45,902 nt of DNA, taken from contig JBEKBM010000026.1 in NCBI GenBank assembly GCA_050015395.1, positions 1 to 45,902 on the forward strand, read 5' to 3'. The position numbers and the translations under genes are program-made. The DNA is from Candidatus Bathyarchaeia archaeon (GTDB taxonomy: Archaea > Thermoproteota > Bathyarchaeia > Bathyarchaeales > Bathycorpusculaceae). Under the pieces are notes generated by a model. That model was not told where the DNA came from. It saw only the letters and a list, made by a program, of their open reading frames with translations, and searched no databases. How positions within the stretch are numbered: the first letter of the stretch is position 1; every line of letters begins with the position of its first letter. This document shows, piece after piece, positions 1 through 10,229 of this stretch.

Positions 1-56
1 AAATCCGTCTTGGCAAGCTTTCTGAAGGCTCCCCTAATGTCAGGAGATAACCTCAC
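1..56 (-). CDS. 5' start of a gene running off the left edge (MRLSPDIRGAFRKLAKTD...)
   Basis: GTG at 56-54 preceded by SD-like GGTGATGGTG; frame is open to the window edge; product not identifiable. Confidence 0.35.
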   Translation of the reverse strand, partial: MRLSPDIRGAFRKLAKTD

Positions 57-184
57 ACCATCACCAGACAACCAATTATGTATCTACTAAGGATAAAAAG
101 ATGTAACGTTAGAAACTTGACTTAACAAAAACATAAGACTTTTATTGGCATCCGCCTAATAGTAAAAAGCTTGAGGAAAAACCC

Positions 185-445
185 TTGGTAGAAGACGCCG
201 TAATCGAGATCGGGCATGTGACACATTTCTTTTCTAAAATCAGCGTAGCAGTAGTAGAATTAATGTTACCGTTATCTGTTGGAGATCGTATACTTGTAAA
301 AGGGCCTTCGACTGATTTTGAGCAAACTGTAGAATCTATGCAAATAGAAGGCAAATCTATTCCACGCGCTGAAGGTGGACAAAACATAGGATTAAAAGTA
401 GTGCAACCAGCGAAAGAAAAAGACGTGGTTTACAAGAAACTATAA
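185..445 (+). CDS. Translation elongation factor-like small beta-barrel protein (EF-Tu domain II / U32 peptidase C-terminal-like)
   Basis: IGHVTHFFSKISVAVVEL...LSVGDRI...VESMQIE...AEGGQNIGLKV pattern. Confidence 0.8.
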   Translation: MVEDAVIEIGHVTHFFSKISVAVVELMLPLSVGDRILVKGPSTDFEQTVESMQIEGKSIPRAEGGQNIGLKVVQPAKEKDVVYKKL

Positions 446-489
446 GCATACAATCCTTGCTTTCATGCTACGAATCGATAATCGAAAAA

Positions 490-1620
490 TTAAGGTATTA
501 TTTCACAGCCGTTGTACTTAATGAAATCGAAATCTTTTAGGTTTACTTTTTCGTTCTTGAGCAAGCGCTGAATCCGTGGAACCTCAGCCTTCACAGCCTC
601 CACGAGTTCTGCAACCGTGTGGCAGACCTTACCGTAAGCTTCATCACTCCAGCGCTTAGTCACATTTGCATATAAGCATCTTCCACCACAAACATTCAGA
701 ATCGAGCAGTTTGCACACGGCGGCTGGTCAACAAAAATTTTCTTTATTTTACGCGGATCAACATTGATTATGTGGCCTAAATAGTAATTTTTCATCCCCC
801 ACATTGTTGGGCAAGGAATGATGTAACCGTCAGTTTGAATGGCATAGTTTATCCAGCCTCCACCGCAACGCATAAAACAATTTTTCTCTTCATGCAAAAG
901 CGAATCGGCGATGCCCAGCAAAGGGTAAAGCTTCAAAACAACGCCCTTCTCCTCCATCAGGTCTACCCAGAACTCTGCAAGCTTTTTTACGCCAGGAATA
1001 TAGCTTGTCTCTGTCCACTGTTCAAAGTTGCGCCTTCCATAATCGTTTCCCCAAAAACCAGCGTTCAATTGCCAATGCACAGAGGAAAAAGAAAATTCAT
1101 CGTTGTCTAAGAGCCATCGGACTTGCTTGTAGATGTCCGTTTGCTCCATGATTGTCATTCTAGCAATTAATTCTCCTCTAAAGCCGTTTTGCTTGATTAA
1201 TTTCAGGTTGTTTACGACTTTGCGGAAGGTGCCGTTTCCCCTGTAATAATCAGTTAAGGCTTCTTCACCATCAATGGAAACTAGAATAGTGTGAAAACGG
1301 TTAACGTATTTTGGCTCCAACTTGTCAAGCAGCAAACCATTTGTCTGAATCATAAAATGCTTAGGCGAAACATTATCCATCACCTGTCTCATTTTGTCAG
1401 CGCAAAGCAAGGGTTCGCCGCCGTAAAAGGTTAAGACGCAATCGGGATCTTTTCGGCAAAACTTGTCCAGCAACTCCACGTTATAGTTAATTTCGCTGGG
1501 AAGCTCATAATCCACCACGATGTCGTCTCCGAAGTCCTCGTCAAAATCATCCAAGGACTCGCCGAAACAGTAGCGGCACTGCAAATTGCACTTGGTTGTC
1601 AGTATCACGTGGAAGAACAT
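490..1620 (-). CDS. Radical SAM/SPASM protein, resembling the archaeal AF0577 (TIGR04084) putative peptide-modifying family
   Basis: CNLQCRYC (CxxxCxxC), YGGEPLL, SIDG; C-terminal CGGG...IIPCP...CANCSILNVCGGRC...C SPASM cysteines. Confidence 0.85.
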   Translation of the reverse strand: MFFHVILTTKCNLQCRYCFGESLDDFDEDFGDDIVVDYELPSEINYNVELLDKFCRKDPDCVLTFYGGEPLLCADKMRQVMDNVSPKHFMIQTNGLLLDKLEPKYVNRFHTILVSIDGEEALTDYYRGNGTFRKVVNNLKLIKQNGFRGELIARMTIMEQTDIYKQVRWLLDNDEFSFSSVHWQLNAGFWGNDYGRRNFEQWTETSYIPGVKKLAEFWVDLMEEKGVVLKLYPLLGIADSLLHEEKNCFMRCGGGWINYAIQTDGYIIPCPTMWGMKNYYLGHIINVDPRKIKKIFVDQPPCANCSILNVCGGRCLYANVTKRWSDEAYGKVCHTVAELVEAVKAEVPRIQRLLKNEKVNLKDFDFIKYNGCEIIP

Positions 1621-1662
1621 GCATGGAGCAGAATGTGACTCTGCCTTAATAGTATTTTTCCG

Positions 1663-3018
1663 CTAGCTTACGAGCTTCATCATACCAGGCGACGAGGCGT
1701 CTCCTTCGTTTTCTTTGCCTTCTACTACTGTATCGTCAGCGTTTTTTGTTTTTTTCTTGCTTCCTTCTTTCTTAGCCTGCTTAAGAGCCTTCTCAGCATA
1801 ATTCTTGAGGTCTCTGTCATTCATTGTTTTCTCAGGCAAAGTCTCAGGTGCATAAACCAAAGGCAAAACAGCCAAAAACAAAAAGATAGCGGTAAATGAA
1901 AATATTGAATTTGCCGGGATCGTCTTGACTATTTCATTTGCTACCGTTAATGTTAAGAGGTATGAAATGAAGAAAGGTAAAACTCCAACAGCATAATACT
2001 TTTCGCTAGGGGAACCATGGCTAATATCTGCCCAGATCGTCATTATAAAAATTACAAAGAGAATCCCTAGTGCGACGCCATCGACAACTGTGTAAAAATA
2101 CCAGCTTAGCGGATTATAAGGATAAATGCCTAAAAATGAATATCCTAAACCTAGCAAGGCAAATCCGATGATTGACATCCTCTTGCGTCCAACAATATCG
2201 GCAAGAAAACCTCCAATCACAGCGAAAAATGCAAGGAAAATGTTTTCAATGCCTTGTAAAGATTGTGCACTTAGAACGTTTATCGAGTTTGCTTGCATGC
2301 TTTGGATTATGTTGTTTTGAAGTGGAACCGTCAAGTAAGTAATTAATGAGAATAATGTCCATGGAATCAGATATAATAAAAATTGCTTGTTATTCAACAG
2401 CGACTTGTAAGTTATTGCTTGATTTTCGTTTAATTTTTGTTTTTGAGGCGAGGTTAAGAAAAATGCAAGGAAAAGTGCTAGACCAAATAGTCTTAATAAT
2501 GAAAGGGTAATTGTTTGTAGGCCAATGTCTCCATCAACAACAATGCCAAGGACAACCATAATTAATACGCTTAAGAGAAATGTTATACCGCTTATGCGAC
2601 CGCGTTTTTCAACCCCTACATTTTCTGAGAACCAACCCATACAACAAGGCATACCTAGCCCTAAAGATACTCCTAAAAGTGGTGATAACAAAAGAATATT
2701 CGATATTTCTTTTAGACTTAAAAAGATGGGAATAAAAGATACGATTGTTCCGAAAACCAACCAAAAGAGCATAAAACTTGATCTATCTTTATTTCTTTTA
2801 ACTATTGAAGCACCGATTAAGGCAGAAACCGCAATTCCACCAAAATGAAGCACCCAAATAAGCACAGTCAGTGACTGACTAATTTGCATGCTGCCCACAA
2901 TGGATTTCAGTAAGTCTATAGCAAAATAATACCAGACAAACGCATTGGTCACTAACACTATGCTTATAACAACATACTTTGCGTTTCTAAAGTCTGTGAA
3001 GAGTTTATTTGGAAGCAA
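1663..3018 (-). CDS. MFS transporter (about 12 TM)
   Basis: Multiple hydrophobic helices, MFS motif A GFLADIVGRKR, and PETLP after the last TM. The C-terminus may continue to 1646 in another frame (YDEARKLAEKYY*). Confidence 0.85.
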   Translation of the reverse strand: MLPNKLFTDFRNAKYVVISIVLVTNAFVWYYFAIDLLKSIVGSMQISQSLTVLIWVLHFGGIAVSALIGASIVKRNKDRSSFMLFWLVFGTIVSFIPIFLSLKEISNILLLSPLLGVSLGLGMPCCMGWFSENVGVEKRGRISGITFLLSVLIMVVLGIVVDGDIGLQTITLSLLRLFGLALFLAFFLTSPQKQKLNENQAITYKSLLNNKQFLLYLIPWTLFSLITYLTVPLQNNIIQSMQANSINVLSAQSLQGIENIFLAFFAVIGGFLADIVGRKRMSIIGFALLGLGYSFLGIYPYNPLSWYFYTVVDGVALGILFVIFIMTIWADISHGSPSEKYYAVGVLPFFISYLLTLTVANEIVKTIPANSIFSFTAIFLFLAVLPLVYAPETLPEKTMNDRDLKNYAEKALKQAKKEGSKKKTKNADDTVVEGKENEGDASSPGMMKLVS

Positions 3019-3120
3019 ATTTTGCCTTCCATTAAAAATCTCTTTACCTTTAAGCGCCTGATAAGGATTGAGAATTTAAAAACTGTATTTTGTGTAAGTA
3101 GTACTGTACAACAGAGCTAC

Positions 3121-3137
3121 CGAAAACCTTTTAAATA
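3121..3137 (+). promoter_or_regulatory. Archaeal BRE-TATA promoter for the small peptide ORF
   Basis: CGAAAA (3121-3126) followed by TTTTAAATA (3129-3137), 37 nt upstream of TTG at 3174. Confidence 0.65.
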
Positions 3138-3173
3138 AATTGTGTAGAACAGAAATACAGGAGAAGAAAGCAA

Positions 3174-3230
3174 TTGAAGGCTACAAGGAAAAAACCACAA
3201 GGTCTAATACGAAGCGCTTGGTCTACTTAA
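3174..3230 (+). CDS. 18-aa putative precursor peptide MKATRKKPQGLIRSAWST (candidate prenylation substrate)
   Basis: TTG start with GGAG at 3160-3163, BRE/TATA upstream and a T7 tract downstream; single Trp third from the C-terminus; flanked by a prenyltransferase-like gene and an MFS gene. Confidence 0.65.
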   Translation: MKATRKKPQGLIRSAWST

Positions 3231-3243
3231 AAAATAGACTGGG

Positions 3244-3256
3244 TTCTTTTTTTATT
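3244..3256 (+). terminator. Oligo-T terminator after the peptide ORF
   Basis: TTCTTTTTTTATT just downstream of the stop codon. Confidence 0.5.
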
Positions 3257-3281
3257 CCATTTTAATTCGATAGGTTTATGG

Positions 3282-4262
3282 CTAAATATCTTCTAGCATA
3301 CAGTTTAATAACAGGGAAAAAGAGTTATTTTGAAATTTAACCAAGTGTAAGTTTTCATTTTCTGCTTTTACCAACGAATACATTTCTTGCTTCAGCTGGT
3401 TTGTCTCTTTTGAATCAATAACGATGTCCAAGATGTTCTCCAGTTGCCTCTCTGTTATTTCGCTTTTAATCAACTTTGAAATCTTTTCAGCTTTCTTGGC
3501 ATTCTTACAAGTTAAAAGAATAGGAAGAGGTAAGCATTCATTTTGAGCTCTGTTTTTGATTTCTGCCAGCTCAAAAGTGTCAATAAATTCATCTCTTAAA
3601 GTAAATAGGATACTGAACGTTTTGCCGTAATGACCTAAAGCCTCCATTTCTTGAGCTGTTCCTTGACCTAAAATTGCTCCTATCTCCATGGTCGCTTTTG
3701 TTATAGTAGCCTTCATCTTGATCATTTCACGGTAATCTTCTGCACAATCAATTCTTCCGCGCAAGCTGGCTTCCCTGGCTTCTCCGCTGCTTACTCCGAA
3801 GAAAGCTTGTTTTATCAGTTGCAAAATGGCTTGCTTTTGTTCGGTTGGTAGAGTCTCACAGGCTTCATGTAGCGCATAAAGCCCTTTGAATAGTAAAACT
3901 TCGCCTGCGAGAACTGTCAAGTCCTTCCCAAACTTGCCATAAACGGTTGGTTTTGAATCTTTCACTGCTGATTGATCAATTACGTCATCGTGCAAGTCAG
4001 CACCTCCAGAAAGAAGGACCAAAGCAGCTGCCACATTATTTGTGTCTTCTGGGGTTCCTCCGACAGCCTCGCATGCAAGCGAAAGCAAAGCTGGGTGCAG
4101 CACATCTTCCCAGGAGTTCATGAAATATTCGACTGCTTCTCGGAGAGGTTCATAGGAGATTTTTTCTTCAGCCATTATTTGGCGTGCCAAATCAAGCCCT
4201 TTTTGTCCCCGTTCATATAAGAGTTCTCGCGCTTGCATTACTAAGTTTTTTTCCGTTGCCAT
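3282..4262 (-). CDS. Divergent polyprenyl synthetase (trans-IPPS fold) family protein; candidate ComQ-like peptide prenyltransferase
   Basis: FARM LHDDVID intact; SARM degenerate (LRDEFID); GKRxRP replaced by EDVLHP; RRG replaced by VKD. Confidence 0.8.
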   Translation of the reverse strand: MATEKNLVMQARELLYERGQKGLDLARQIMAEEKISYEPLREAVEYFMNSWEDVLHPALLSLACEAVGGTPEDTNNVAAALVLLSGGADLHDDVIDQSAVKDSKPTVYGKFGKDLTVLAGEVLLFKGLYALHEACETLPTEQKQAILQLIKQAFFGVSSGEAREASLRGRIDCAEDYREMIKMKATITKATMEIGAILGQGTAQEMEALGHYGKTFSILFTLRDEFIDTFELAEIKNRAQNECLPLPILLTCKNAKKAEKISKLIKSEITERQLENILDIVIDSKETNQLKQEMYSLVKAENENLHLVKFQNNSFSLLLNCMLEDI

Positions 4263-4599
4263 TATGGTCGTTTCCTTATTGTCGCGTTATGTATTTGTCT
4301 TTTTAGGTAAACGCTCTGGCGGCGACGTAATGTTGGCAGTAGTGTAAGGCTCGGTTGCCGCATGATGCGATATAATTAAATTTGTGTCTGCTGTTCGGAA
4401 TAGATCAATGGGCAGAGATATCCTCTGTTTTTGGGTACATTTTAAGTCCCTTTAATCTACGTCTTGCTTTTATGCGCAGGATTTGCTCATAACACCTTGC
4501 ATTGCACCATAAAACTCGGCTACGCCTATGCATAGGTTTGTTTTAGATAAACAACCATCAAAATGGCTTGAAAAAAGCAATGGGCTTGTTTCTCGAGTG

Positions 4600-5301
4600 T
4601 TACGGCGTTACATTAGGGCTATCTTGCGAAATTAACGCATTATACATCACCATAGCGACTGCCACTGACCCGTCACTATCTGGGTGAACTCCGTCTGGAA
4701 AATATGCTGAGTGGTTAATCATGGGGTTGTAAACATCAATTACTGAGGCGCCAGTATTGTTTGCCACTTGTTCAATGTCTGGGATAATGTTCTGCACAAG
4801 GCATTCTGCGCTCAGACCAGTACTATTGCTAAAAATCGGCGGTGGCTCCGCAATCCACACCTTCGGTTTGGTCGAAAGCCCCTGGAACTGCGTGACCAGC
4901 CGAACATAATCATTAATAAAAACTGCGTTAGATTCGTTAAGGTCTGAGTTCGCGTCGTTGGTTCCCAGCATGATAATTACGATATTAGGTTCAAATTGCT
5001 TAGCAACTCGAAATGCAGGCGTGTAAATATACGGATTGTCTGAATTAAGGAAAACCGTGGCTCCGTTAACACCAAAGTTGCCAACCACATAGTTAGAGCT
5101 AAGCATCAGCCACAGGTCAACTGGATAAGCGGTTCCGCAAGTTATGCTGTCTCCGACGCAAGCTACGCGAATGGAGTCGGCTTGGCTTCTGCCATTTCCC
5201 ATTATTTGCCAGGCGTAGGTTTCTACGCTTAACAAGACTATTAAAATGGCAACTCCAAGCGTTAACAGCTTCATTTTACGATTCATACTTTTTCGATTCA
5301 A
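4600..5301 (-). CDS. SGNH/GDSL esterase-lipase, secreted or membrane-anchored
   Basis: GDSIT, GNFGVNG, LGTND and DGVHP blocks; N-terminal signal/TM segment. Confidence 0.9.
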   Translation of the reverse strand: MNRKSMNRKMKLLTLGVAILIVLLSVETYAWQIMGNGRSQADSIRVACVGDSITCGTAYPVDLWLMLSSNYVVGNFGVNGATVFLNSDNPYIYTPAFRVAKQFEPNIVIIMLGTNDANSDLNESNAVFINDYVRLVTQFQGLSTKPKVWIAEPPPIFSNSTGLSAECLVQNIIPDIEQVANNTGASVIDVYNPMINHSAYFPDGVHPDSDGSVAVAMVMYNALISQDSPNVTP

Positions 5302-5347
5302 CCGTACTATGTTTAAGGTCTTAACCGCTGAACATTAGTTTTCTTCA

Positions 5348-5435
5348 TGGTGCAGGGGGTGGGATTTGAACCCACGAACCTCTACAGGATAGGCTCCTGA
5401 AGCCTACGCCTTTGACCATGCTCGGCGACCCCTGC
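5348..5435 (-). tRNA. tRNA-Leu(CAG), CCA encoded
   Basis: Acceptor GCAGGGG/CCCCTGC; anticodon arm TAGGC-TTCAGGA-GCCTA; long variable arm; T arm GTGGG-TTCAAAT-CCCAC. Confidence 0.93.
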
Positions 5436-5460
5436 ACTTACGCGGATCAAATTTGAGGAG

Positions 5461-5534
5461 GGCCGAGGCAGGGATTTGAACCCTGGCAAAAGGCTCCACA
5501 GGCCTCTAGGCTACCAAGCTACCTCACCTCGGCC
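5461..5534 (-). tRNA. tRNA-His(GUG) with genomically encoded G-1
   Basis: G-GCCGAGG/CCTCGGC-C acceptor; anticodon arm GAGGC-CTGTGGA-GCCTT; T arm CAGGG-TTCAAAT-CCCTG. Confidence 0.93.
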
Positions 5535-5720
5535 ACATTTTGGTGTTTTCGACTACTTTTTGCCCGTCGTTGATAGCTTGGTTATTAATCATTTTCTTTT
5601 TCTCAGGAATATTAAGTTGTCCTTTTGGCAGACGTATTCGAATCCTACTTCCAAGAGGCTTTTTATTTCTTCAGGGTTTTCTGAGACTTTGACTGTAAAG
5701 ACCTTGCGTGGTTTGAAGGG

Positions 5721-5939
5721 TTGCGCGAATCATACAAGATCGTTCTCACCGCTAAAGGTGATTGCACGGTTCTGACAAAGAGCGTAAGGGGAAGCGGAGA
5801 TACGTTTGAGATTGAGAGGTCGGGTGACATAACTAACATTACCTTGCTCAAACGGCTCTATGAGTTGCTGTTGATCGAATACAAAGAAGTCGCTGGAACA
5901 AACACGAAACTGGAAAGATATTTCGGTCTGAAATCTTGA
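5721..5939 (+). CDS. Small hypothetical protein
   Basis: 72-aa ORF with protein-like composition; competes with overlapping antisense ORFs. Confidence 0.45.
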   Translation: MRESYKIVLTAKGDCTVLTKSVRGSGDTFEIERSGDITNITLLKRLYELLLIEYKEVAGTNTKLERYFGLKS

Positions 5940-6064
5940 CTGAAAGAGAAATTCATAGCGAACTAAAAGAAACAATGAAAAAGCCGAGATTTTAATGGCA
6001 AAAGTAAAGCGGTCGTAATAGCGGTTAGGTGTGCCCGTCGTGGGCTACGTGTGCGCGCGCAATG

Positions 6065-6328
6065 TTAGGTTGCGCATTTTGGACCTTTGTGAGCGCTCAA
6101 TACAACTGAGGTTATTGTGCTCTTCACTCCCTTGATCTTCATGATTCTGTTTTTCAGGGCATCCCTTAATTCCTCGATATTCGATGCCGACACAAGCGTA
6201 ACGATGTCAAATTCGCCTGTTACCTCGTACAGTTCCTCCACTGCGTCTATCTTGGAAAGGGCTTGAACCACATCATCCATGAGGGGCGCTTCCACGAAAA
6301 TGTTTACAAAAGCATGTAATCCATGCAC
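6065..6328 (-). CDS. Stand-alone Lrp/AsnC ligand-binding (RAM) domain protein
   Basis: VEELYEVTGEFDIV...IMKIKGVKSTITSVVL signature. Confidence 0.88.
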   Translation of the reverse strand: MHGLHAFVNIFVEAPLMDDVVQALSKIDAVEELYEVTGEFDIVTLVSASNIEELRDALKNRIMKIKGVKSTITSVVLSAHKGPKCAT

Positions 6329-6511
6329 TTATTTCACCAGTAACCTGGTCATAGTCTCTTCAAGTTTCCACTGGTCAAGGTAAGTATTGTACTTTTCTAT
6401 GTTGTTTCTTTGTCGTTTCCTGTTAGGGAAATCAGGTATAACATATTTGGATCCTGATCCAGAATTGTAGCGTCACAAAACTTTTATACGATAGTTTATA
6501 GACTTTGTAAA

Positions 6512-6949
6512 ATGATGCCAACTGTAAGAGATTTTATGACAACGAATGTCATCACAATTGATGTTCAGGGGACCGTGCTTGAGGCTGCAAAGCTAATGCA
6601 CCAACAAGATGTAGGTGATCTTGTAGTAATGGAGGGTATTGTGGCTAAGGGCATAGTTACTGAAAGAGACTTAGTTAGAAGGGTTATGGCGCAGAAAAAA
6701 CCGCTTGATACTAAAGTCTCTGAGGTAATGTCAGATCCGCTTATAACAATCGAGGAGGAATCCTCACTGCGAGATGCTGCGAGGAAAATGGTCAAGTATA
6801 AAATAAGGCGACTTCCCGTTACGAAGAATAACGTGTTGGTCGGTATAATAGCCACTTCTGATTTTGCTAGGCACCTCAGCAAAAAAAGCTTCAGTGAAGT
6901 AATGCTCGCTGCCATGAGCCGATATCCCTTAGCCGACGCCAACCGATGA
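6512..6949 (+). CDS. CBS domain pair protein
   Basis: TVRDFMT, GIVTERDL, VSEVMSDP, IRRLPV, LVGII. Confidence 0.92.
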   Translation: MMPTVRDFMTTNVITIDVQGTVLEAAKLMHQQDVGDLVVMEGIVAKGIVTERDLVRRVMAQKKPLDTKVSEVMSDPLITIEEESSLRDAARKMVKYKIRRLPVTKNNVLVGIIATSDFARHLSKKSFSEVMLAAMSRYPLADANR

Positions 6950-7264
6950 GCGCGCTCAACTGCATCAAATACTCAAACCGATGCCACCTCAACTGACAAC
7001 GCTTCGCGTGCTAATGACCATCTCACTGACCGCTGACATCCCAAGCATCATCATATCCCTAGTTTTCGTAAAGATACGTTCAACGTGGCCATAGACGGAA
7101 AATCATCAGCAAAATCCTCAACGCTAACGGACAAATACGTTAACCATGCGTATTCACACTTAATTGTTGCAGGTCAATTGCCCATTATTTCTTCAACCCT
7201 ACAATCTTTAGCCATCAACAAAACCAAAAAGCAACGCCAAGAGAAGATTTACGGTGAGCTTTAT

Positions 7265-8442
7265 ATGAAGCGAAAACTCTGTTTTAAGCAACGGAGTCAA
7301 TTTAAACGTATAACTTTAAGACAATCTTTCGTTTTTTAGCGTTCATAATCGTCTTAGGTCTCAGCCTTTTAAGCGTAACTTCACTTTCGTCTGCCAGCCT
7401 AACCTCATACAGCAACGTCCAAATAAACATCCAAACCTCAAACATACAATCAGGCTACTTCACAGTCTCAGCGTTCAACATGACCGGCTACCAGGAATCC
7501 TCAGTTCAAACCTATTATCCCGCCGCCTCCTTCGAACTTCCAAACGGACAATACATCTTCACCGTCACCGCAAACAACCAAACCAACTCGAACTATCCAG
7601 TTCCACTGGGACTCGGAGCCACATCAAGCAGCGGTGAAAGCTCCCCAAGCACTCCATCATTACCCATCTCCGTAGCCCCAGCAACCGAATACGGATACTC
7701 AGTACAGCAAATCTCCAACTCAATAACGATCACAATCACAACTCAAAACGTTTCTTCATTCCCAACAAATACACTAACAATACAAGTCCTCTACGCCAAC
7801 GGAACCGTAGCCGCAGACGCATCCGTTTCAGCATCCACCATCGGATCCTCATACTACTGGGGCTACGAACCCAACGTCACAACCTGGACCACAACCGGAC
7901 CCGACGGCTACGCAACCCTCATAACACCCACAGCACCAGAACAAATCGACGCGTGGAGCTGGCTACCCCTAAACCTCACCGACAACACCGCACCGCAAGT
8001 CATCATCGCGGGCGAACCCGTAAACGTAACTGGTCCCATGGAGCCAGCCTACATCGGAGTAGCGGGCTCAACGCTGATAGTTCCCCCGCAAACAACGGCA
8101 ACAATCACAATGTACACACAACAGCAAAGCTACTGGATAACCCCATATGCAGCCACCGCAACACCAGAAACAGGCTCAACAGCAAGCGCTCCAAGCTCAA
8201 GTTCATTCGCTGGTCCCGGCGCAATCCCCGCTTCAGTATATGCCCAACAACAAGGAAACCCAGCACTCCAGACGACCCAAACGCCAACACCAACCACTAC
8301 AAGTTCCCGCACAACCAGCGGAAACACGCTACTCCTAACTATTTTAGTCGCCATAGTCATCGCAGGAGTCGCAGTGGCAAGCCTAATAATCGCAACAAGA
8401 ACCAAAAGAAAACAACAACAATCGAGCTTGCAGGCGAGTTAA
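7265..8442 (+). CDS. Secreted Ser/Thr-rich surface protein with a C-terminal membrane anchor; 1-nt frameshift in the signal region (ORF track shows only 7480-8442)
   Basis: ATG 7265 with GGTGA SD gives a basic n-region; the frame of 7480 is open back to 7306 and encodes the h-region FLAFIIVLGLSLLSVTSLSSA; T-rich linker, TM and KRK tail at the C-terminus. Confidence 0.7.
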
Positions 8443-8571
8443 ACAATTGGTGAAAAATGATAATTTTGAGGTCCACAGCTACTTCTTGCTTCTATGAAGT
8501 CGCCGCCATAGAAGCGATGAACAGTTTTCTGAAAACTCAATATCGTCCAAAAAACTCTTTTTTATTTGGGC

Positions 8572-8931
8572 TTACCCTAAGTATTCGCACCAACTTTTTG
8601 GGCTTTCCCAGACTCTCACTTTTTCGAGTTTCACGCAGTCTGGTATTACTTTCTTAAGGTAATCAAAAGCATATTTTGAAATGTTTTCGGATGTTGGGTT
8701 GCCGATTTCTGTTAGCTCATTTAGGTATGTATGATCAAGTTTTTCCGCTATTTCCTGAAGGCTTGTCTTAAGAACGTTAAAGTCTATAACCATGCCAGTA
8801 GATTCTGTTTTTTCGCCTATAACGAAGAGTTCTATTTTCCACGTGTGCCCATGTAGCCTTTCACATTTGCCGTTGGAAGCAAGAATATTGTGGGCTGCAT
8901 CAAACGTTGTTTCAACTCTTAGTCGATACAT
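8572..8931 (-). CDS. queD: 6-carboxytetrahydropterin synthase / PTPS (COG0720)
   Basis: FDAAH, CERLHGHTW, LDHTYLN, NPTSENI, VWES. Confidence 0.92.
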   Translation of the reverse strand: MYRLRVETTFDAAHNILASNGKCERLHGHTWKIELFVIGEKTESTGMVIDFNVLKTSLQEIAEKLDHTYLNELTEIGNPTSENISKYAFDYLKKVIPDCVKLEKVRVWESPKSWCEYLG

Positions 8932-8944
8932 GCTGTAACCTCGA

Positions 8945-9778
8945 TTATAGGACTCCTCGCCATTCTGAAAAAACGTTATGATCGTGAATGGACTCTATGC
9001 TCACGCATTTAACTTTACAATACCTATTTGGATACTTTTCTTTTAATAGCTGCACGCACTTTCTCGTCACATCTTCCACGAATCTGGCGTTTTCATGCAT
9101 TTTTTCCACCACTTTCTTTTCTTCAGACCTTTTTAATAATGAAAATATAGGTGAACTAAAACTCTGACTGCAAATCTCGATGACATCTAGCAGTTGGATT
9201 TTTTGGTTTGAGGTGTCGATTTCGACCTTGAGGCTGCCTCTTTGGTTGTGAGTTAGGCCGTTGCACATTGCTTTTGAGCATGGGCAAGCTAAGGCTCCAT
9301 TAATTTGAATGCCTGCAGTTTTCCTTTTTGTCTTAGTAGAGAATTTGGCGAACATTTGAGCAATTGAATTTTCTTTCTCTCCACTTGGCCTCGTCCTTTC
9401 GTAAGGAAGTTCACCGAAGACTTCAGTCTGACAATCAAATCCATGTTTTTCTAATGCTTGTTTTGAAATCAGTTCAGCCAAATCTTCTATTGACGAAGCG
9501 GTGGTGGGTGTCGCCTCTACTGATTCAACAAGTCGGCTCATGTGGACACCGCGAAGATTAGCTGGCAAGGTTATGTAACTGTTTATGGTAACAATAACGT
9601 TGTAGGTAGCTTTAGCCCTTTTCAAAGAAACTAGTTTCCTTAGACCTACAATGCCAACTTTTTCTAGCTCAATCTCGTTTTCGGGCTTTTGATTTTGAAC
9701 ATCGATAGTCAAGAACCCTTTACCATCCTGCGCCTTAGCCCTCAATTTTCTAGTTTCCACCATTTTACCCGTATCCAA
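8945..9778 (-). CDS. folE2: GTP cyclohydrolase FolE2/MptA family
   Basis: DVQ, RGVHMSRL, CPCS, HNQRG, LKRSEE, FVEDVTR, ESIHDHN. Confidence 0.9.
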   Translation of the reverse strand: MDTGKMVETRKLRAKAQDGKGFLTIDVQNQKPENEIELEKVGIVGLRKLVSLKRAKATYNVIVTINSYITLPANLRGVHMSRLVESVEATPTTASSIEDLAELISKQALEKHGFDCQTEVFGELPYERTRPSGEKENSIAQMFAKFSTKTKRKTAGIQINGALACPCSKAMCNGLTHNQRGSLKVEIDTSNQKIQLLDVIEICSQSFSSPIFSLLKRSEEKKVVEKMHENARFVEDVTRKCVQLLKEKYPNRYCKVKCVSIESIHDHNVFSEWRGVL

Positions 9779-9897
9779 GTGACCGCAATGGTGATGTGGC
9801 TTATTATTCTTTACTTTATGATTTCCCGATTTATTTTATTTTAGTGCACCCAGATATTTGTAATGTCTGCCGCCCATCAGTAAAGTTGCAGTTTTGA

Positions 9898-10229
9898 TTG
9901 TGCAAGATAATTCTGGCTAATGTAAGAACCGAACACATTATGCATATTACTTTTAGAGGCGACAGAAACAATAACAAAATGGAAAGAATGAACGGAGAAG
10001 TCAGAGGCAGAGAAAAAGTAATGAGAGGATTAAAAATCAATGAAACTCCAATCCTTAAGGCTACCAACTATTCCACAACTATATCCGACCTCACGAAGGT
10101 TTAGGCGGCAAAACTCCCTCGGAAGCTTGCGGAATAACAATCGAAGGAAAGAACAGATGGCTCACTCTAATCCAGAACACGAGTCAACAGATTAGAAGTA
10201 ACGCTCAGAAGAAAATGACAGAGAGGTAA
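9898..10229 (+). pseudogene. IS6-family/DDE transposase C-terminal remnant, frameshifted
   Basis: NNNKMERMNGEVRGREKVMRGLK, then after a frameshift near 10058 GYQLFHNYIRPHEGLGGKTPSEACGITIEGKNRWLTLIQN. Confidence 0.8.

What the first reader, a model, noticed from the sequence alone, without database searches (positions are those of the whole stretch)
1663..4262. Candidate archaeal ComQX-like prenylated peptide (pheromone/RiPP) system: 18-aa Trp peptide + degenerate polyprenyl synthase + MFS exporter
Seen: the 263-bp gap between the MFS gene and the polyprenyl-synthase homolog holds a complete mini transcription unit missed by the ORF track. It has BRE/TATA (3121-3137), GGAG, a TTG-initiated ORF MKATRKKPQGLIRSAWST* (3174-3230) and a T7 tract. 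The peptide has a basic leader-like half and a single Trp third from the C-terminus. Established: Bacillus ComX is geranylated or farnesylated on a Trp 3-4 residues from its C-terminus (e.g. ADPITRQWGD) by ComQ, a trans-isoprenyl diphosphate synthase homolog with a non-canonical second Asp-rich motif. Inference: this locus prenylates the peptide on Trp and exports it via the MFS, i.e. a quorum-sensing-like or RiPP system that I am not aware of being described in Archaea.
Basis: partly seen in the sequence, partly recalled or inferred. Interest (0 to 1): 0.92.

Follow-up and report, generated by a model that had tools for sequence, protein, structure and literature searches.

The report
Tiny peptide gene beside archaeal prenyl enzyme
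A real, conserved 18-codon gene sits between a modified prenyl-synthase-like enzyme and a membrane transporter in Bathyarchaeia, and the trio looks like a fast-evolving system that makes, probably lipid-tags and exports a very short peptide, something not yet described in archaea.

Summary
Window 3174-3230 (+) is a small gene with BRE/TATA, a Shine-Dalgarno-like GGAG and a T7 tract.

- **Conservation.** Of 91 non-redundant Bathyarchaeia loci with the enzyme-then-transporter layout, 88 carry such an ORF at the same place and strand. It has a K/R-rich start, a P-x-R motif and a variable tail of mostly 4-7 residues. The tail holds Trp in 71 of 88.
- **Coding.** Sense strand (0 of 94) and shuffled controls, synonymous Arg/Pro codon variation and third-position substitution bias all show it is translated.
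- **Enzyme.** It has the trans-isoprenyl-diphosphate-synthase fold and an invariant first Asp-rich motif. It has lost the GGKRxR motif. A canonical paralog lies elsewhere in the genome.
- **Variability.** In a sister species, flanks are 87-96% identical in DNA, but window 1879-5346 has no detectable DNA similarity. Enzyme and transporter identities track each other, not the neighbouring radical-SAM gene.
- **Second cassette.** It pairs a paralogous enzyme with a conserved 73-aa partner. A complex prediction supports binding (0.62 against 0.00).

A ComQX/PalQX-like prenylated peptide is the best reading (about 0.5) but is unproven. Against it: the Gln shared by known Trp prenyltransferases is absent, the second acidic motif is kept, one clade lacks Trp, and no receptor or expression data exist. 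It is an analogue of independent origin, not a ComQ-family member.

The parts
1663..3018 (-). MFS transporter gene (451 aa, TTG start). Proposed exporter of the peptide product. Its N-terminal ~84% lies in the hypervariable block; the last ~72 codons (1663-1878) are conserved with the sister species.
   Evidence: Pfam MFS_1 59.5 bits. An MFS homolog follows the enzyme gene on the same strand in 21 of 24 relatives' loci and 73 of 80 genome-contig loci. Nucleotide similarity to L043 stops at 1878.
3084..3115 (-). Degenerate inverted copy of the promoter-proximal motif, facing the MFS gene. Possible second half of a divergent promoter or operator.
   Evidence: Read. A copy of TGTNNNACANNNATAC on the MFS strand occurs in 20 of 94 regions.
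3121..3137 (+). BRE/TATA of the peptide gene (CGAAAA-CCTTTTAAATA).
   Evidence: Consensus of 79 anchored loci is CGCAAAnCTTTTAAG, placed about 22-24 nt before ATACAG.
3143..3159 (+). Conserved promoter-proximal motif TGTAGAACAGAAATACA, between the TATA box and the Shine-Dalgarno sequence. Candidate operator or transcript start region.
   Evidence: TGTNNNACANNNATAC is on the peptide strand in 64 of 94 regions. The pattern TGTWSWACANNWATACA has only 2 hits in the 2.59-Mb genome, one of them here.
3160..3163 (+). Shine-Dalgarno-like GGAG, 10 nt before the start codon.
   Evidence: GGAGG-like stretches precede most homologous ORFs.
3174..3230 (+). 18-codon peptide gene. Product MKATRKKPQGLIRSAWST: basic leader, L-I-R in place of the family's P-x-R, and tail SAWST.
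   Evidence: Nearest alleles are MKARKIPVGPIRGAWS (L061), MKAKKPLRPIRLGWA (L051) and VKYKKPMSPIRSTWN (L056). Coding signature.
3231..3253 (.). Back-to-back oligo-T terminators. A6 at 3231-3236 reads as T6 on the - strand, for the enzyme mRNA. T7 at 3247-3253 serves the peptide mRNA.
   Evidence: Read directly. That these tracts act as terminators is inferred from the known use of oligo-T tracts in archaeal termination (recalled).
3282..4262 (-). Polyprenyl-synthase-fold protein (326 aa). Proposed peptide prenyltransferase. It carries FARM D89-x-H-D-D-x-x-D96, second motif D224-E-F-I-D228, and W-E-D-V-L-H-P in place of GGKRxRP.
   Evidence: PF00348 83.2 bits. Best NCBIfam hit IdsA 111.6 bits against a cut-off of 468. 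Alignments A1, A2, A4. AF2 model pLDDT 95.8. Foldseek top hit 1wy0 at TM 0.86, with Ord1 at ranks 3-6.
1879..5346 (.). Hypervariable replacement block: most of the MFS gene, the peptide gene, the enzyme gene and a GDSL hydrolase gene. It is bounded by the conserved MFS 3' end and rSAM gene on one side and by tRNA genes on the other.
   Evidence: blastn of the window against L043 (G019): 87% identity over 130-1878, no hit over 1879-5346, 90-96% from 5347 on. tRNA hits at 5351-5435 and 5467-5528.

Best explanation
This is a three-gene cassette of Bathyarchaeia that makes, modifies and exports an ultra-short ribosomal peptide.

**Proposed mechanism.**
1. The peptide (12-23 residues; 18 here) is transcribed from its own BRE/TATA promoter and translated from a Shine-Dalgarno-led start.
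2. Its polybasic N-terminal part and the near-invariant P-x-R dock on the enzyme. The likely site is the family-specific acidic stretch just after the second acidic motif (D228-x-F-E-x-[ED]-E234).
3. The enzyme is a trans-isoprenyl-diphosphate-synthase descendant. It still binds an allylic prenyl diphosphate through Mg2+ at the first Asp-rich motif but no longer has the IPP site.
4. It transfers the prenyl group to the variable aromatic tail. Most likely the acceptor is the Trp that is last or next to last in most alleles.
5. The lipidated peptide leaves through the co-varying MFS pump, perhaps after cleavage behind the Arg.
6. Outside the cell it acts as a strain-specific signal or an archaeocin. 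That would explain the allele-like replacement of the whole block between close species.

**Shown.**
- The gene is real and translated.
- The cassette is conserved.
- Enzyme, peptide and transporter evolve as a unit.
- The IPP motif is lost.
- A paralogous enzyme is predicted to bind its neighbouring small protein.

**Inferred.** Docking site, prenyl transfer, acceptor residue, cleavage, export and biological role.
For: 1. **Layout is conserved.** The enzyme gene is followed by a gap of about 130-350 bp and then an MFS gene on the same strand in 21 of 24 relatives' loci and 73 of 80 genome-contig loci.
2. **The small ORF is conserved.** It sits on the opposite strand next to the enzyme's stop codon. 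Strict motif: 62 of 91 non-redundant regions, 0 of 94 on the sense strand, shuffle mean 0.66. Relaxed rule: 88 of 91.
3. **Selection acts on the protein.**
   - The invariant Arg uses AGA 29, CGA 16, AGG 10, CGG 4, CGC 3, CGT 3. Pro uses four codons.
   - Differences by codon position are 110/79/198 in 53 moderately diverged pairs, with 123 synonymous and 162 non-synonymous codon changes.
4. **Leader plus variable tail.** Trp is in 71 of 88 tails and is last (22) or penultimate (41) in 63 of those 71. GW occurs in 18 tails. For comparison, the PalX core is DNVRRFFW and PalQ prefers GW/GGW ends.
5. **Enzyme residues.** FARM, K101, T106, E164, K184 and E234 are invariant in 76 of 76. Motif I reads W-x-D-x-x-H-P. 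The genome's canonical paralog keeps GGKRWRP.
6. **Solved relatives by profile.** 1wy0 GGPPS scores 135.9 bits. Next is Ord1 (9V4G-J) at 102 bits over nearly the full length. Ord1 prenylates indole and does not condense IPP.
7. **Hypervariability.** Across 45 unique triplets, median pairwise identity is enzyme 40.7%, MFS 39.4%, rSAM 69.0%. Spearman is 0.70 for enzyme~MFS and 0.08 for enzyme~rSAM (the loci are related, so p-values overstate).
8. **Tail types follow enzyme clades** on a quick ML tree of 76 sequences.
9. **Paralogous cassette (contig C29).** All 4 of 4 enzymes of that type have a convergent ~73-aa ORF ending K-[YW]-P-x-x(-x).
   - Complex prediction score is 0.62 (runs 0.60, 0.62, 0.65), best of 3 controls 0.00.
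   - That mark was reached by 58 of 80 solved complexes and 2 of 110 mismatched pairs.
   - Partner pLDDT is at least 76 and runs agree in at least 78% of contacts. My own 4-row alignments were used, so the calibration holds only roughly.
10. **Precedent.** A minimal set of tiny peptide, enzyme and MFS exporter is known in mccABC.
Against: - The Gln three residues before the second motif is described as shared by trans-IDS-like Trp prenyltransferases and Ord1, and as key to indole recognition. That position here reads T36, A8, S8, I7, G5, N4, V4 of 76.
- The second motif stays acidic: D/E at its first position in 67 of 76, E/D at its second position in 76 of 76, and D228 in 74 of 76. ComQ, StheQ and Ord1 have pseudo-SARMs. 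A Mg-dependent synthase- or cyclase-like chemistry on a non-peptide substrate is therefore not excluded.
- 17 of 88 tails have no Trp, and a well-supported enzyme clade of 10 rows has tails such as TLPL, ALPDI and VLP.
- The peptide gene is convergent with the enzyme gene, not co-transcribed with it.
- No receptor kinase, protease or dedicated regulator lies in the window cassette.
- The complex prediction concerns the paralogous pair, not the 18-aa peptide.
- No biochemical or expression evidence of any kind was available.
Confidence: 0.5

Rival explanations
1. The enzyme and the MFS pump make and export a non-peptide isoprenoid. The enzyme would act as a synthase or cyclase on prenyl diphosphates or on another small acceptor. 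The tiny peptide is then a regulator rather than a substrate. It could bind the enzyme, or its convergent transcript could act on the 3' end of the enzyme mRNA.
For: - Both acidic motifs are retained, and the Trp-recognising Gln is absent.
- The orientation is convergent. In some loci the peptide ORF overlaps the end of the enzyme ORF, with distances of -4 to -27 nt.
- A Trp-less clade exists.
- Public annotation calls these proteins GGPP synthases.
Against: - The motif-I basic residues are lost. By recalled FPPS and GGPPS structures these bind IPP, which argues against elongation.
- The peptide's sequence, not just its RNA, is under selection.
- A leader-plus-hypervariable-tail layout that follows the enzyme clades is what a substrate would show.
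- The paralog's partner is predicted to dock with its C-terminal part near the active-site mouth, at enzyme residues 48, 50 and 98-101.
Confidence: 0.2
2. The peptide acts unmodified as a short cationic Trp/Arg-rich membrane-active peptide (an archaeocin). The MFS serves as export or immunity pump. The prenyl-synthase-like protein has a separate protective or lipid role.
For: - Net charge is +2 to +9 (median +6) with aromatic C-termini such as YWWY, FWWR and SHGWSWWW.
- Hypervariability fits an arms race.
Against: - It does not explain why the enzyme co-varies with peptide type.
- It does not explain why a paralogous enzyme is always paired with a quite different, non-cationic 73-aa partner that is predicted to bind it.
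- 12-18 residues with a near-invariant P-x-R is an odd design for a lytic peptide.
Confidence: 0.15
3. The neighbouring radical SAM/SPASM enzyme (490-1620), not the prenyl-synthase homolog, matures the peptide, for example by an Arg/Lys-Trp cross-link.
For: - The gene follows the MFS gene in 13 of 14 same-genus 20-kb loci and in about 49 of 80 genome-contig loci.
- It belongs to TIGR04084 and has weak hits to peptide-maturase models.
Against: - TIGR04084 is above its cut-off in 33 of 41 relatives. These include genomes without the cassette: G005, G018, G027-G029, G033, G034, G037 and G038.
- In G040, G025, G026 and G031 it lies elsewhere than the cassette.
- It is 59-96% identical where the cassette is 25-58% identical, and its divergence is uncorrelated with the enzyme's (rho 0.08).
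- The hypervariable block ends before it.
Confidence: 0.04
4. The ORF is not translated. The conserved element is only a promoter or a small non-coding RNA.
For: - The promoter-proximal motif is the most conserved DNA in the gap.
- One clade has no canonical start codon.
- No RNA or proteomic data are available.
Against: - Conserved residues are encoded by varied synonymous codons, and substitutions have third-position periodicity.
- Start and stop positions are conserved and Shine-Dalgarno-like sequences are present.
- No Rfam family matches the gap.
Confidence: 0.04

Closest known systems
ComQ/ComX of Bacillus, and the related PalQ/PalX (Paenibacillus) and StheQ/StheX (Sphaerobacter): trans-IDS-like tryptophan prenyltransferases with adjacent precursor genes
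   Same: - The enzyme has the IPPS fold, keeps the first Asp-rich motif and no longer elongates with IPP.
- A small precursor gene lies next to the enzyme gene.
- An aromatic or Trp residue sits at or within a few residues of the C-terminus.
- The locus is strongly polymorphic between close strains or species.

Sources: passages of PMC10853753, bioRxiv 10.64898/2026.08.29.745113, PMC13290415 and PMC4408185.
   Different: - The host is archaeal, and by sequence the family is nearer to archaeal GGPPS than to Ord1, so the origin is probably independent.
- The Gln upstream of the second motif is absent, and the second motif is still acidic.
- Precursors are 12-23 aa with a polybasic leader, not precursors with long leaders such as the NHLP domain of PalX (core starts at D73) or StheX (at least 69 residues).
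- The peptide gene is convergent with the enzyme gene.
- The partner is an MFS transporter, not a histidine kinase.
- About a fifth of alleles lack Trp.
Ord1/XiaM (PDB 9V4G-J): IPPS-fold indole prenyltransferases of Streptomyces
   Same: - It is the second-best solved relative by profile, at 102 bits over positions 38-304, and ranks 3-6 by Foldseek.
- It also lacks GGKRxR (FGKMMGPW in the alignment) and does not condense IPP.
   Different: - Ord1 acts on free indole.
- It has Y215, Q216 and D219 and a pseudo-SARM without metal.
- The family here has a variable residue at the Gln position and an acidic [DE][DE]xxD.
Microcin C minimal operon mccABC
   Same: It has the same three parts: a very short ribosomal peptide without a separate long leader, one modifying enzyme acting at the C-terminal end, and an MFS-type exporter (passages of PMC4010828).
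   Different: The enzyme is an adenylyltransferase, not a prenyl-synthase homolog. The genes form one operon. The hosts are bacteria.
Canonical archaeal GGPP synthase (IdsA-type), the name these proteins carry in public records
   Same: PF00348 is above its cut-off. The fold matches, with best structural match 1wy0 at TM 0.86. FARM is intact.
   Different: - Scores are far below the NCBIfam equivalog cut-offs: 111.6 against 468, and 96.3 against 500.
- GGKRxR and the FQ Gln are lost.
- A separate canonical paralog exists in the same genome, at 214.5 bits.
- Distribution is patchy: 58 of 301 class-level genomes.

Membership tests
Trans-IDS-like Trp prenyltransferases (ComQ IPR033965, PalQ, StheQ) | All-alpha trans-IPPS fold | tested here: met
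   AF2 model pLDDT 95.8, pTM 0.92. Foldseek TM 0.86 to 1wy0 and 0.70-0.71 to Ord1.
Trans-IDS-like Trp prenyltransferases (ComQ IPR033965, PalQ, StheQ) | First Asp-rich motif retained for the prenyl donor | tested here: met
   D89, H91, D92, D93 and D96 are present in 76 of 76 sequences.
Trans-IDS-like Trp prenyltransferases (ComQ IPR033965, PalQ, StheQ) | Conserved Gln immediately upstream of the second motif, for indole N-H recognition (PMC13290415 section 2.4) | tested here: not met
   Position 221 reads T36, A8, S8, I7, G5, N4, V4 of 76. In the C29-type paralog the equivalent residue is Leu.
Trans-IDS-like Trp prenyltransferases (ComQ IPR033965, PalQ, StheQ) | Second Asp-rich motif turned into a pseudo-SARM | tested here: not met
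   The window family keeps R-[D44 E23 N6]-[E49 D27]-F-I-D(74/76). Only the C29-type paralog has lost it (QDFQVSV and similar).
Trans-IDS-like Trp prenyltransferases (ComQ IPR033965, PalQ, StheQ) | Adjacent cognate precursor gene with Trp at or near the C-terminus | tested here: met
   88 of 91 loci have the ORF and 71 of 88 have Trp in the tail. The orientation is convergent, unlike the known systems.
Trans-IDS-like Trp prenyltransferases (ComQ IPR033965, PalQ, StheQ) | Sequence membership in the ComQ family model | not testable with these tools
   No ComQ-specific model or ComQ sequence came up in Pfam, NCBIfam or PDB searches.
Trans-IDS-like Trp prenyltransferases (ComQ IPR033965, PalQ, StheQ) | Peptide prenylation activity | not testable with these tools
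   This needs an enzyme assay or mass spectrometry.
ComQXPA-type quorum sensing | Receptor histidine kinase and response regulator in the locus | tested here: not met
   Neighbours are an rSAM/SPASM gene, an MFS gene, a GDSL hydrolase gene and tRNA genes. No kinase was seen.
ComQXPA-type quorum sensing | Polymorphic enzyme-peptide-partner block within conserved flanks | tested here: met
   Compared with passages of PMC4408185.
Canonical trans-isoprenyl diphosphate synthase (GGPPS/IdsA) | Score above the curated equivalog cut-off | tested here: not met
   IdsA 111.6 against 468. GGPP_syn 96.3 against 500.
Canonical trans-isoprenyl diphosphate synthase (GGPPS/IdsA) | Motif I GGKRxR (IPP diphosphate binding; this role is recalled from FPPS/GGPPS structures) | tested here: not met
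   W51 (67/76)-x-D53 (51/76)-x-x-H56 (57/76)-P57. The genome's canonical paralog has GGKRWRP.
Canonical trans-isoprenyl diphosphate synthase (GGPPS/IdsA) | Two DDxxD motifs | tested here: inconclusive
   The first is intact. The second is DExxD in the window protein and [DE][DE]xxD in the family.
Radical SAM/SPASM RiPP system | The maturase occurs together with the precursor | tested here: not met
   TIGR04084 is present above its cut-off in genomes lacking the cassette, and lies elsewhere in some that have it.

The most novel reading that the evidence does not exclude
Bathyarchaeia carry an archaeal, independently evolved counterpart of bacterial pherotype systems. Each lineage would encode its own ultra-short, polybasic, C-terminally prenylated peptide with a matched prenyltransferase and MFS pump. 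The block would be swapped as a unit between close species. It would serve strain-specific signalling or kin discrimination, or act as a lipopeptide archaeocin. Two precursor designs (12-23 aa and about 73 aa) would be served by paralogous enzymes. This would be the first ribosomal prenyl-peptide system, and the first peptide-based communication or antagonism locus, in this uncultured phylum.
Probability: 0.25. Interest if true: 0.92.

Novelty: new variant of a known kind. Interest (0 to 1): 0.8.

Why it matters
- **Annotation.** These proteins are named 'geranylgeranyl pyrophosphate synthase' or 'polyprenyl synthetase family protein' in public records. The peptide gene is too short for standard gene callers. 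The cassette is therefore invisible to annotation and probably to RiPP mining.
- **Not found in print.** I found no archaeal case in the papers I could search.
  - 'archaea' occurs 0 times in the PalQ paper and in the StheQ and Ord1 papers.
  - It occurs only in another context in the 2026 prenylation review.
  - 'prenyl', 'tryptophan' and 'Bathyarchae' each occur 0 times in the archaeal RiPP survey preprint.
  - Searches listed none. Supplements were closed and might list such clusters.
- **If the reading is right.**
  - It extends ribosomal peptide prenylation to Archaea.
  - It shows a second, independent route from GGPPS to a peptide prenyltransferase, without the Gln of the bacterial enzymes.
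  - It supplies very short natural substrates and many matched enzyme-peptide pairs for lipidation biocatalysis.
  - It gives a first handle on cell-cell interaction in a globally abundant, uncultured sediment lineage.
- **Testability.** It can be tested directly with synthetic peptides and recombinant enzyme.

Tried and rejected
- **Rfam.** A search of window 1-9000 at E up to 1 found only two tRNA hits and one weak overlapping hit, nothing in the gap.
- **RNA evidence.** No RNA holder was listed for window 1-10000.
- **Radical SAM neighbour as maturase.** Rejected as an obligate partner.
- **Promoter motif as a general element or regulon.** The pattern has 2 hits in the genome. The second (contig C35) has no TATA box, no similar ORF and no cassette.
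- **Family of the 73-aa partner.** No Pfam hit, no NCBIfam hit for the query protein itself (one search gave only weak hits, E 0.047 or worse, for its L133 ortholog), and no feature hit in the Atlas. The structural rows there are short helical look-alikes of no evident meaning.
- **Fold search.** It could not separate a synthase from a transferase, because both kinds rank at the top.
- **Tandem enzyme genes in L038.** The gap between them has no peptide gene or promoter.
- **Seven loci without a downstream MFS gene.** In L108 the MFS gene lies upstream and divergent, with a trypsin-like protease gene between. No typical peptide gene was found.
- **Complex with the 18-aa peptide.** Not attempted, because complex prediction asks for chains of 30 residues or more.
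- **treekit.** The careful tree did not finish, so the quick tree (SH-aLRT only) was used.
- **Relaxed peptide rule.** It mis-picks three loci (L055, L069, L019). Their typical peptides are visible, so the Trp count of 71 of 88 is slightly low.

Full report
**1. The observation.**
- BRE/TATA CGAAAACCTTTTAAATA at 3121-3137
- GGAG at 3160-3163
- TTG at 3174
- 18 codons giving MKATRKKPQGLIRSAWST
- TAA at 3228-3230
- T7 at 3247-3253

The flanking genes are a 451-aa MFS_1 protein (1663-3018, - strand; Pfam 59.5 bits) and a 326-aa polyprenyl_synt protein (3282-4262, - strand; Pfam 83.2 bits). The small ORF is on the + strand. It therefore converges on the enzyme gene and diverges from the transporter gene. 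An A6 run at 3231-3236, which reads as T6 on the - strand, and the T7 run form back-to-back oligo-T tracts between the two convergent genes. Rfam has nothing in the gap.

**2. Is the ORF real?**
- I collected the enzyme's relatives from 40 related genomes and from GTDB species genomes. The latter search found 221 relatives and kept 80 loci, almost all titled Bathyarchaeota or Bathyarchaeia MAGs.
- The enzyme gene is followed on the same strand by an MFS homolog after a gap of mostly 170-290 bp. This holds in 21 of 24 relatives' loci and 73 of 80 genome-contig loci.
- On the opposite strand, hard against the enzyme's stop codon, almost every locus has a tiny ORF.
- Its product has a Met, a run rich in K/R, then P-[IVMLT]-R, then a variable tail of mostly 4-7 residues and a stop.
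- The strict pattern is found in 62 of 91 non-redundant regions. Before de-duplication it was 65 of 94, and three loci had been fetched twice. It is found in 0 of 94 on the sense strand and in 0.66 regions on average (at most 3) in 100 dinucleotide shuffles.
- A relaxed rule finds the ORF in 88 of 91 regions. The pattern was defined after seeing the data, so these figures describe enrichment only.

Independent signs of translation:
- The invariant Arg is encoded by AGA 29, CGA 16, AGG 10, CGG 4, CGC 3 and CGT 3. The Pro uses four codons.
- In 53 moderately diverged pairs, differences fall 110/79/198 on codon positions 1/2/3, with 123 synonymous and 162 non-synonymous codon changes.
- Upstream lies a conserved promoter: CGCAAAnCTTTTAAG, 7 nt, TGTTGAACA, 3 nt, ATACAG, then a GGAGG-like stretch and the start.
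- The motif TGTWSWACANNWATACA occurs only twice in the 2.59-Mb genome. The second hit led nowhere.

The window's TTG start aligns with the ATG or GTG of its nearest alleles: MKARKIPVGPIRGAWS, MKAKKPLRPIRLGWA and VKYKKPMSPIRSTWN.

**3. The peptide family.**
- Trp is in 71 of 88 tails. It is the last residue in 22 and the penultimate in 41. GW occurs in 18 tails.
- 17 tails lack Trp. Most of these belong to two enzyme clades, with tails such as TLPL, ALPDI and VLP, or LYAV, ILAV and LRAI.
- Net charge of the last 12 leader residues plus tail is +2 to +9, median +6. The enzymes have a median pI of 5.7.
- On a quick ML tree of 76 enzymes, tail types follow enzyme clades. Linked genes co-inherit, so this fits co-evolution but does not prove it.

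**4. The enzyme.**
- The genome has three PF00348 paralogs: a canonical one (contig C9, 214.5 bits), the window's (83.9 bits) and a third on C29 (43.6 bits).
- The window protein scores far below the NCBIfam equivalog cut-offs: IdsA 111.6 against 468, GGPP_syn 96.3 against 500.
- In an alignment of 76 family members the first Asp-rich motif (D89-x-H-D-D-x-x-D96) and K101, T106, E164, K184 and E234 are invariant.
- The second motif is R-[D44 E23 N6]-[E49 D27]-F-I-D(74/76).
- Where the genome's canonical paralog has GGKRWRP (the canonical GGKRxR motif), the family has W-x-D-x-x-H-P.
- The Gln of the canonical FQ pair is replaced by T, A, S and others.
- From recalled FPPS and GGPPS structures, the lost basic residues bind the IPP diphosphate, while the retained ones (FARM, and the equivalents of K101 and K184) bind the allylic donor. 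I therefore infer a prenyl-donor-binding enzyme that does not elongate.
- The AF2 model is confident (pLDDT 95.8) and is a standard IPPS fold. The best match is Pyrococcus GGPPS 1wy0 at TM 0.86, with Ord1 at ranks 3-6.
- By profile search of the PDB, 1wy0 scores 135.9 bits and Ord1 (9V4G-J) 102 bits over nearly the full length.
- Ord1 is an IPPS-fold indole prenyltransferase that does not condense IPP (passages of PMC12510300).

**5. What is known.**
- Trans-IDS-like peptide prenyltransferases comprise ComQ, PalQ, the P domain of ChrPC and, since a 2026 preprint, StheQ of a Chloroflexi member. All characterised ones target Trp.
- They and Ord1 share a Gln just upstream of the second motif that is thought to recognise the indole N-H (PMC13290415 section 2.4; bioRxiv 10.64898/2026.08.29.745113 passages).
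- PalX has the core DNVRRFFW, and PalQ prefers GW and GGW ends.
- The family here lacks that Gln and keeps an acidic second motif. I therefore do not file it as a member of those families. It is an analogue that most likely arose independently from an archaeal GGPPS.
- A minimal set of tiny peptide, enzyme and MFS exporter has a precedent in mccABC (PMC4010828 passages).

**6. A hypervariable block.**
- In G019, flanking genes are 85-97% identical in protein to the window's, but the enzyme is 34% and the MFS 34% identical.
- At DNA level, identity is 87% over 130-1878, nothing is detectable over 1879-5346, and identity is 90-96% from 5347 on, where tRNA genes lie.
- The block thus covers the N-terminal ~84% of the MFS gene, the peptide gene, the enzyme gene and, in the window only, a GDSL hydrolase gene.
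- Over 45 unique enzyme-MFS-rSAM triplets, median pairwise identities are 40.7%, 39.4% and 69.0%.
- Enzyme and MFS identities correlate (Spearman 0.70). Enzyme and rSAM identities do not (0.08). Pairs with rSAM at 88% or more have enzymes at 30-58%, with one exception at 100%. The loci are related, so p-values overstate.
- This mirrors the 'striking polymorphisms' of comQXPA and its pherotypes (PMC4408185 passages).
- The family is patchy. At E up to 1e-35 it is in 58 of 301 class-level genomes, concentrated in a few families: f1 35 of 48, f7 12 of 12.
- Duplications and decay occur: two cassettes in L034, two MFS genes in L047, two enzyme genes in L038, and an enzyme fragment in L044.
- The second L034 cassette has its own promoter and a peptide ORF interrupted at an A-run.

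**7. The radical SAM neighbour.**
- The TIGR04084 rSAM/SPASM gene (490-1620; 309.8 bits against a cut-off of 225) follows the MFS gene in many loci.
- It is a core gene. It is above its cut-off in 33 of 41 relatives, including those without the cassette, and it lies elsewhere in some that have it.
- It is outside the variable block. I treat it as synteny, not as part of the system.

**8. A second cassette type in the same genome.**
- On contig C29 a paralogous enzyme (FARM kept, second motif lost) is followed by a convergent 73-aa ORF and then an MFS-like gene.
- All 4 of 4 enzymes of this type in the genomes searched have that ORF at the same place. It ends K-[YW]-P-x-x(-x).
- It has no Pfam hit, the query protein itself has no NCBIfam hit (only weak hits, E 0.047 or worse, for its L133 ortholog), and no usable Atlas match.
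- Complex prediction supports binding. The score is 0.62 (runs 0.60, 0.62, 0.65) and the best of 3 controls is 0.00.
- That mark was reached by 58 of 80 solved complexes and 2 of 110 mismatched pairs. Partner pLDDT is at least 76 and runs agree in at least 78% of contacts. My own 4-row alignments were used, so the calibration holds only roughly.
- The partner's N-terminal helix (residues 4-31) contacts enzyme residues 223-233 and 268-282. Its residues 58-64 approach 48, 50 and 98-101 near the first Asp-rich motif.
- In the window family, the stretch equivalent to 226-233 is the conserved acidic D-x-F-E-x-[ED]-E. I propose, by inference only, that this is the dock for the polybasic leader.
- This result concerns the paralog. 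The 18-mer is too short for the tool.

**9. Verdict.** This is a conserved, translated mini-gene inside a hypervariable three-gene cassette.
- Against it stand the missing Gln, the retained second acidic motif, the Trp-less clade, the convergent orientation, and the lack of a receptor and of any expression or chemical data.
- Rivals are a regulatory peptide beside a small-molecule isoprenoid pathway (0.2), an unmodified cationic peptide (0.15), the rSAM enzyme as maturase (0.04), and a non-coding element (0.04).
- Public records name the enzymes GGPP synthases.
- I found no archaeal counterpart in the searched literature. Supplements were closed.
- I rate it a new variant of a known kind, with interest 0.8.

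Noticed in passing
window 490-1620 (-): A radical SAM/SPASM protein of family TIGR04084 (309.8 bits, cut-off 225). It is highly conserved (59-96% identity) and present in 33 of 41 relatives, including those without the cassette. It marks the conserved edge of the variable block. Its own function is unknown.
   Followed up: yes
G000 contig C29 (L003 1390-3558): A second, paralogous cassette in the same genome. It has a prenyl-synthase-like gene with a lost second motif, a convergent 73-aa ORF ending QQKYPEIL, and an MFS-like gene. The ORF is conserved beside all 4 enzymes of this type, and a complex prediction supports binding (0.62 against 0.00).
   Followed up: yes
window 5351-5435 and 5467-5528 (-): Two tRNA hits (54.6 and 38 bits; the second matches only model positions 6-65) sit exactly where similarity to the sister species resumes. 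This suggests a tRNA-flanked site of allele replacement or integration.
   Followed up: partly
window 4600-5301 (-): A GDSL-like hydrolase gene lies inside the variable block. It is absent at this place in G019 (L043), and a 56%-identical copy is present in L045.
   Followed up: partly
L007, L008, L073-L075, L081, L087, L005/L059, L070: These loci keep the peptide frame (for example ..TNKPLRPIRSWWM) and a GGAGGAAAGG Shine-Dalgarno sequence but have no ATG, GTG or TTG. In most of them (L007, L008, L073-L075, L081, L087, L005/L059) a conserved ACG follows the Shine-Dalgarno sequence at the expected place, so a non-canonical start may be used.
   Followed up: no
L034 6150-6290 (+), second cassette of G012: The promoter and peptide frame (..KNPKLIRSAGWPGI) are present, but the ATG is out of frame at an A6 run. 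This could be a homopolymer sequencing error, decay or phase variation.
   Followed up: no
L108 654-3957 (also L088, L097, L099): In one clade the MFS gene lies upstream and divergent from the enzyme gene, with a secreted trypsin-family protease gene (PF00089, 43.9 bits) between them. No typical peptide gene was found. A trypsin-like protease would suit cleavage behind the invariant Arg.
   Followed up: partly
G000 contig C35 19258-19274 (L135 3759-3775): This is the only other exact hit of the promoter-proximal motif in the genome. There is no TATA box, no similar ORF and no cassette nearby. The contig ends 600 bp further on.
   Followed up: yes
G010 contig C15 92940-94057: The TIGR04084 rSAM homolog next to this genome's cassette is split and has four in-frame stops. 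It is either a pseudogene or an assembly error.
   Followed up: no
window 3282-4262 family, all loci: The convergent orientation of the small gene relative to the enzyme gene is kept in both cassette types, although the enzymes are only 25-30% identical. In some loci the two ORFs overlap by 4-27 nt. No explanation so far accounts for this.
   Followed up: no
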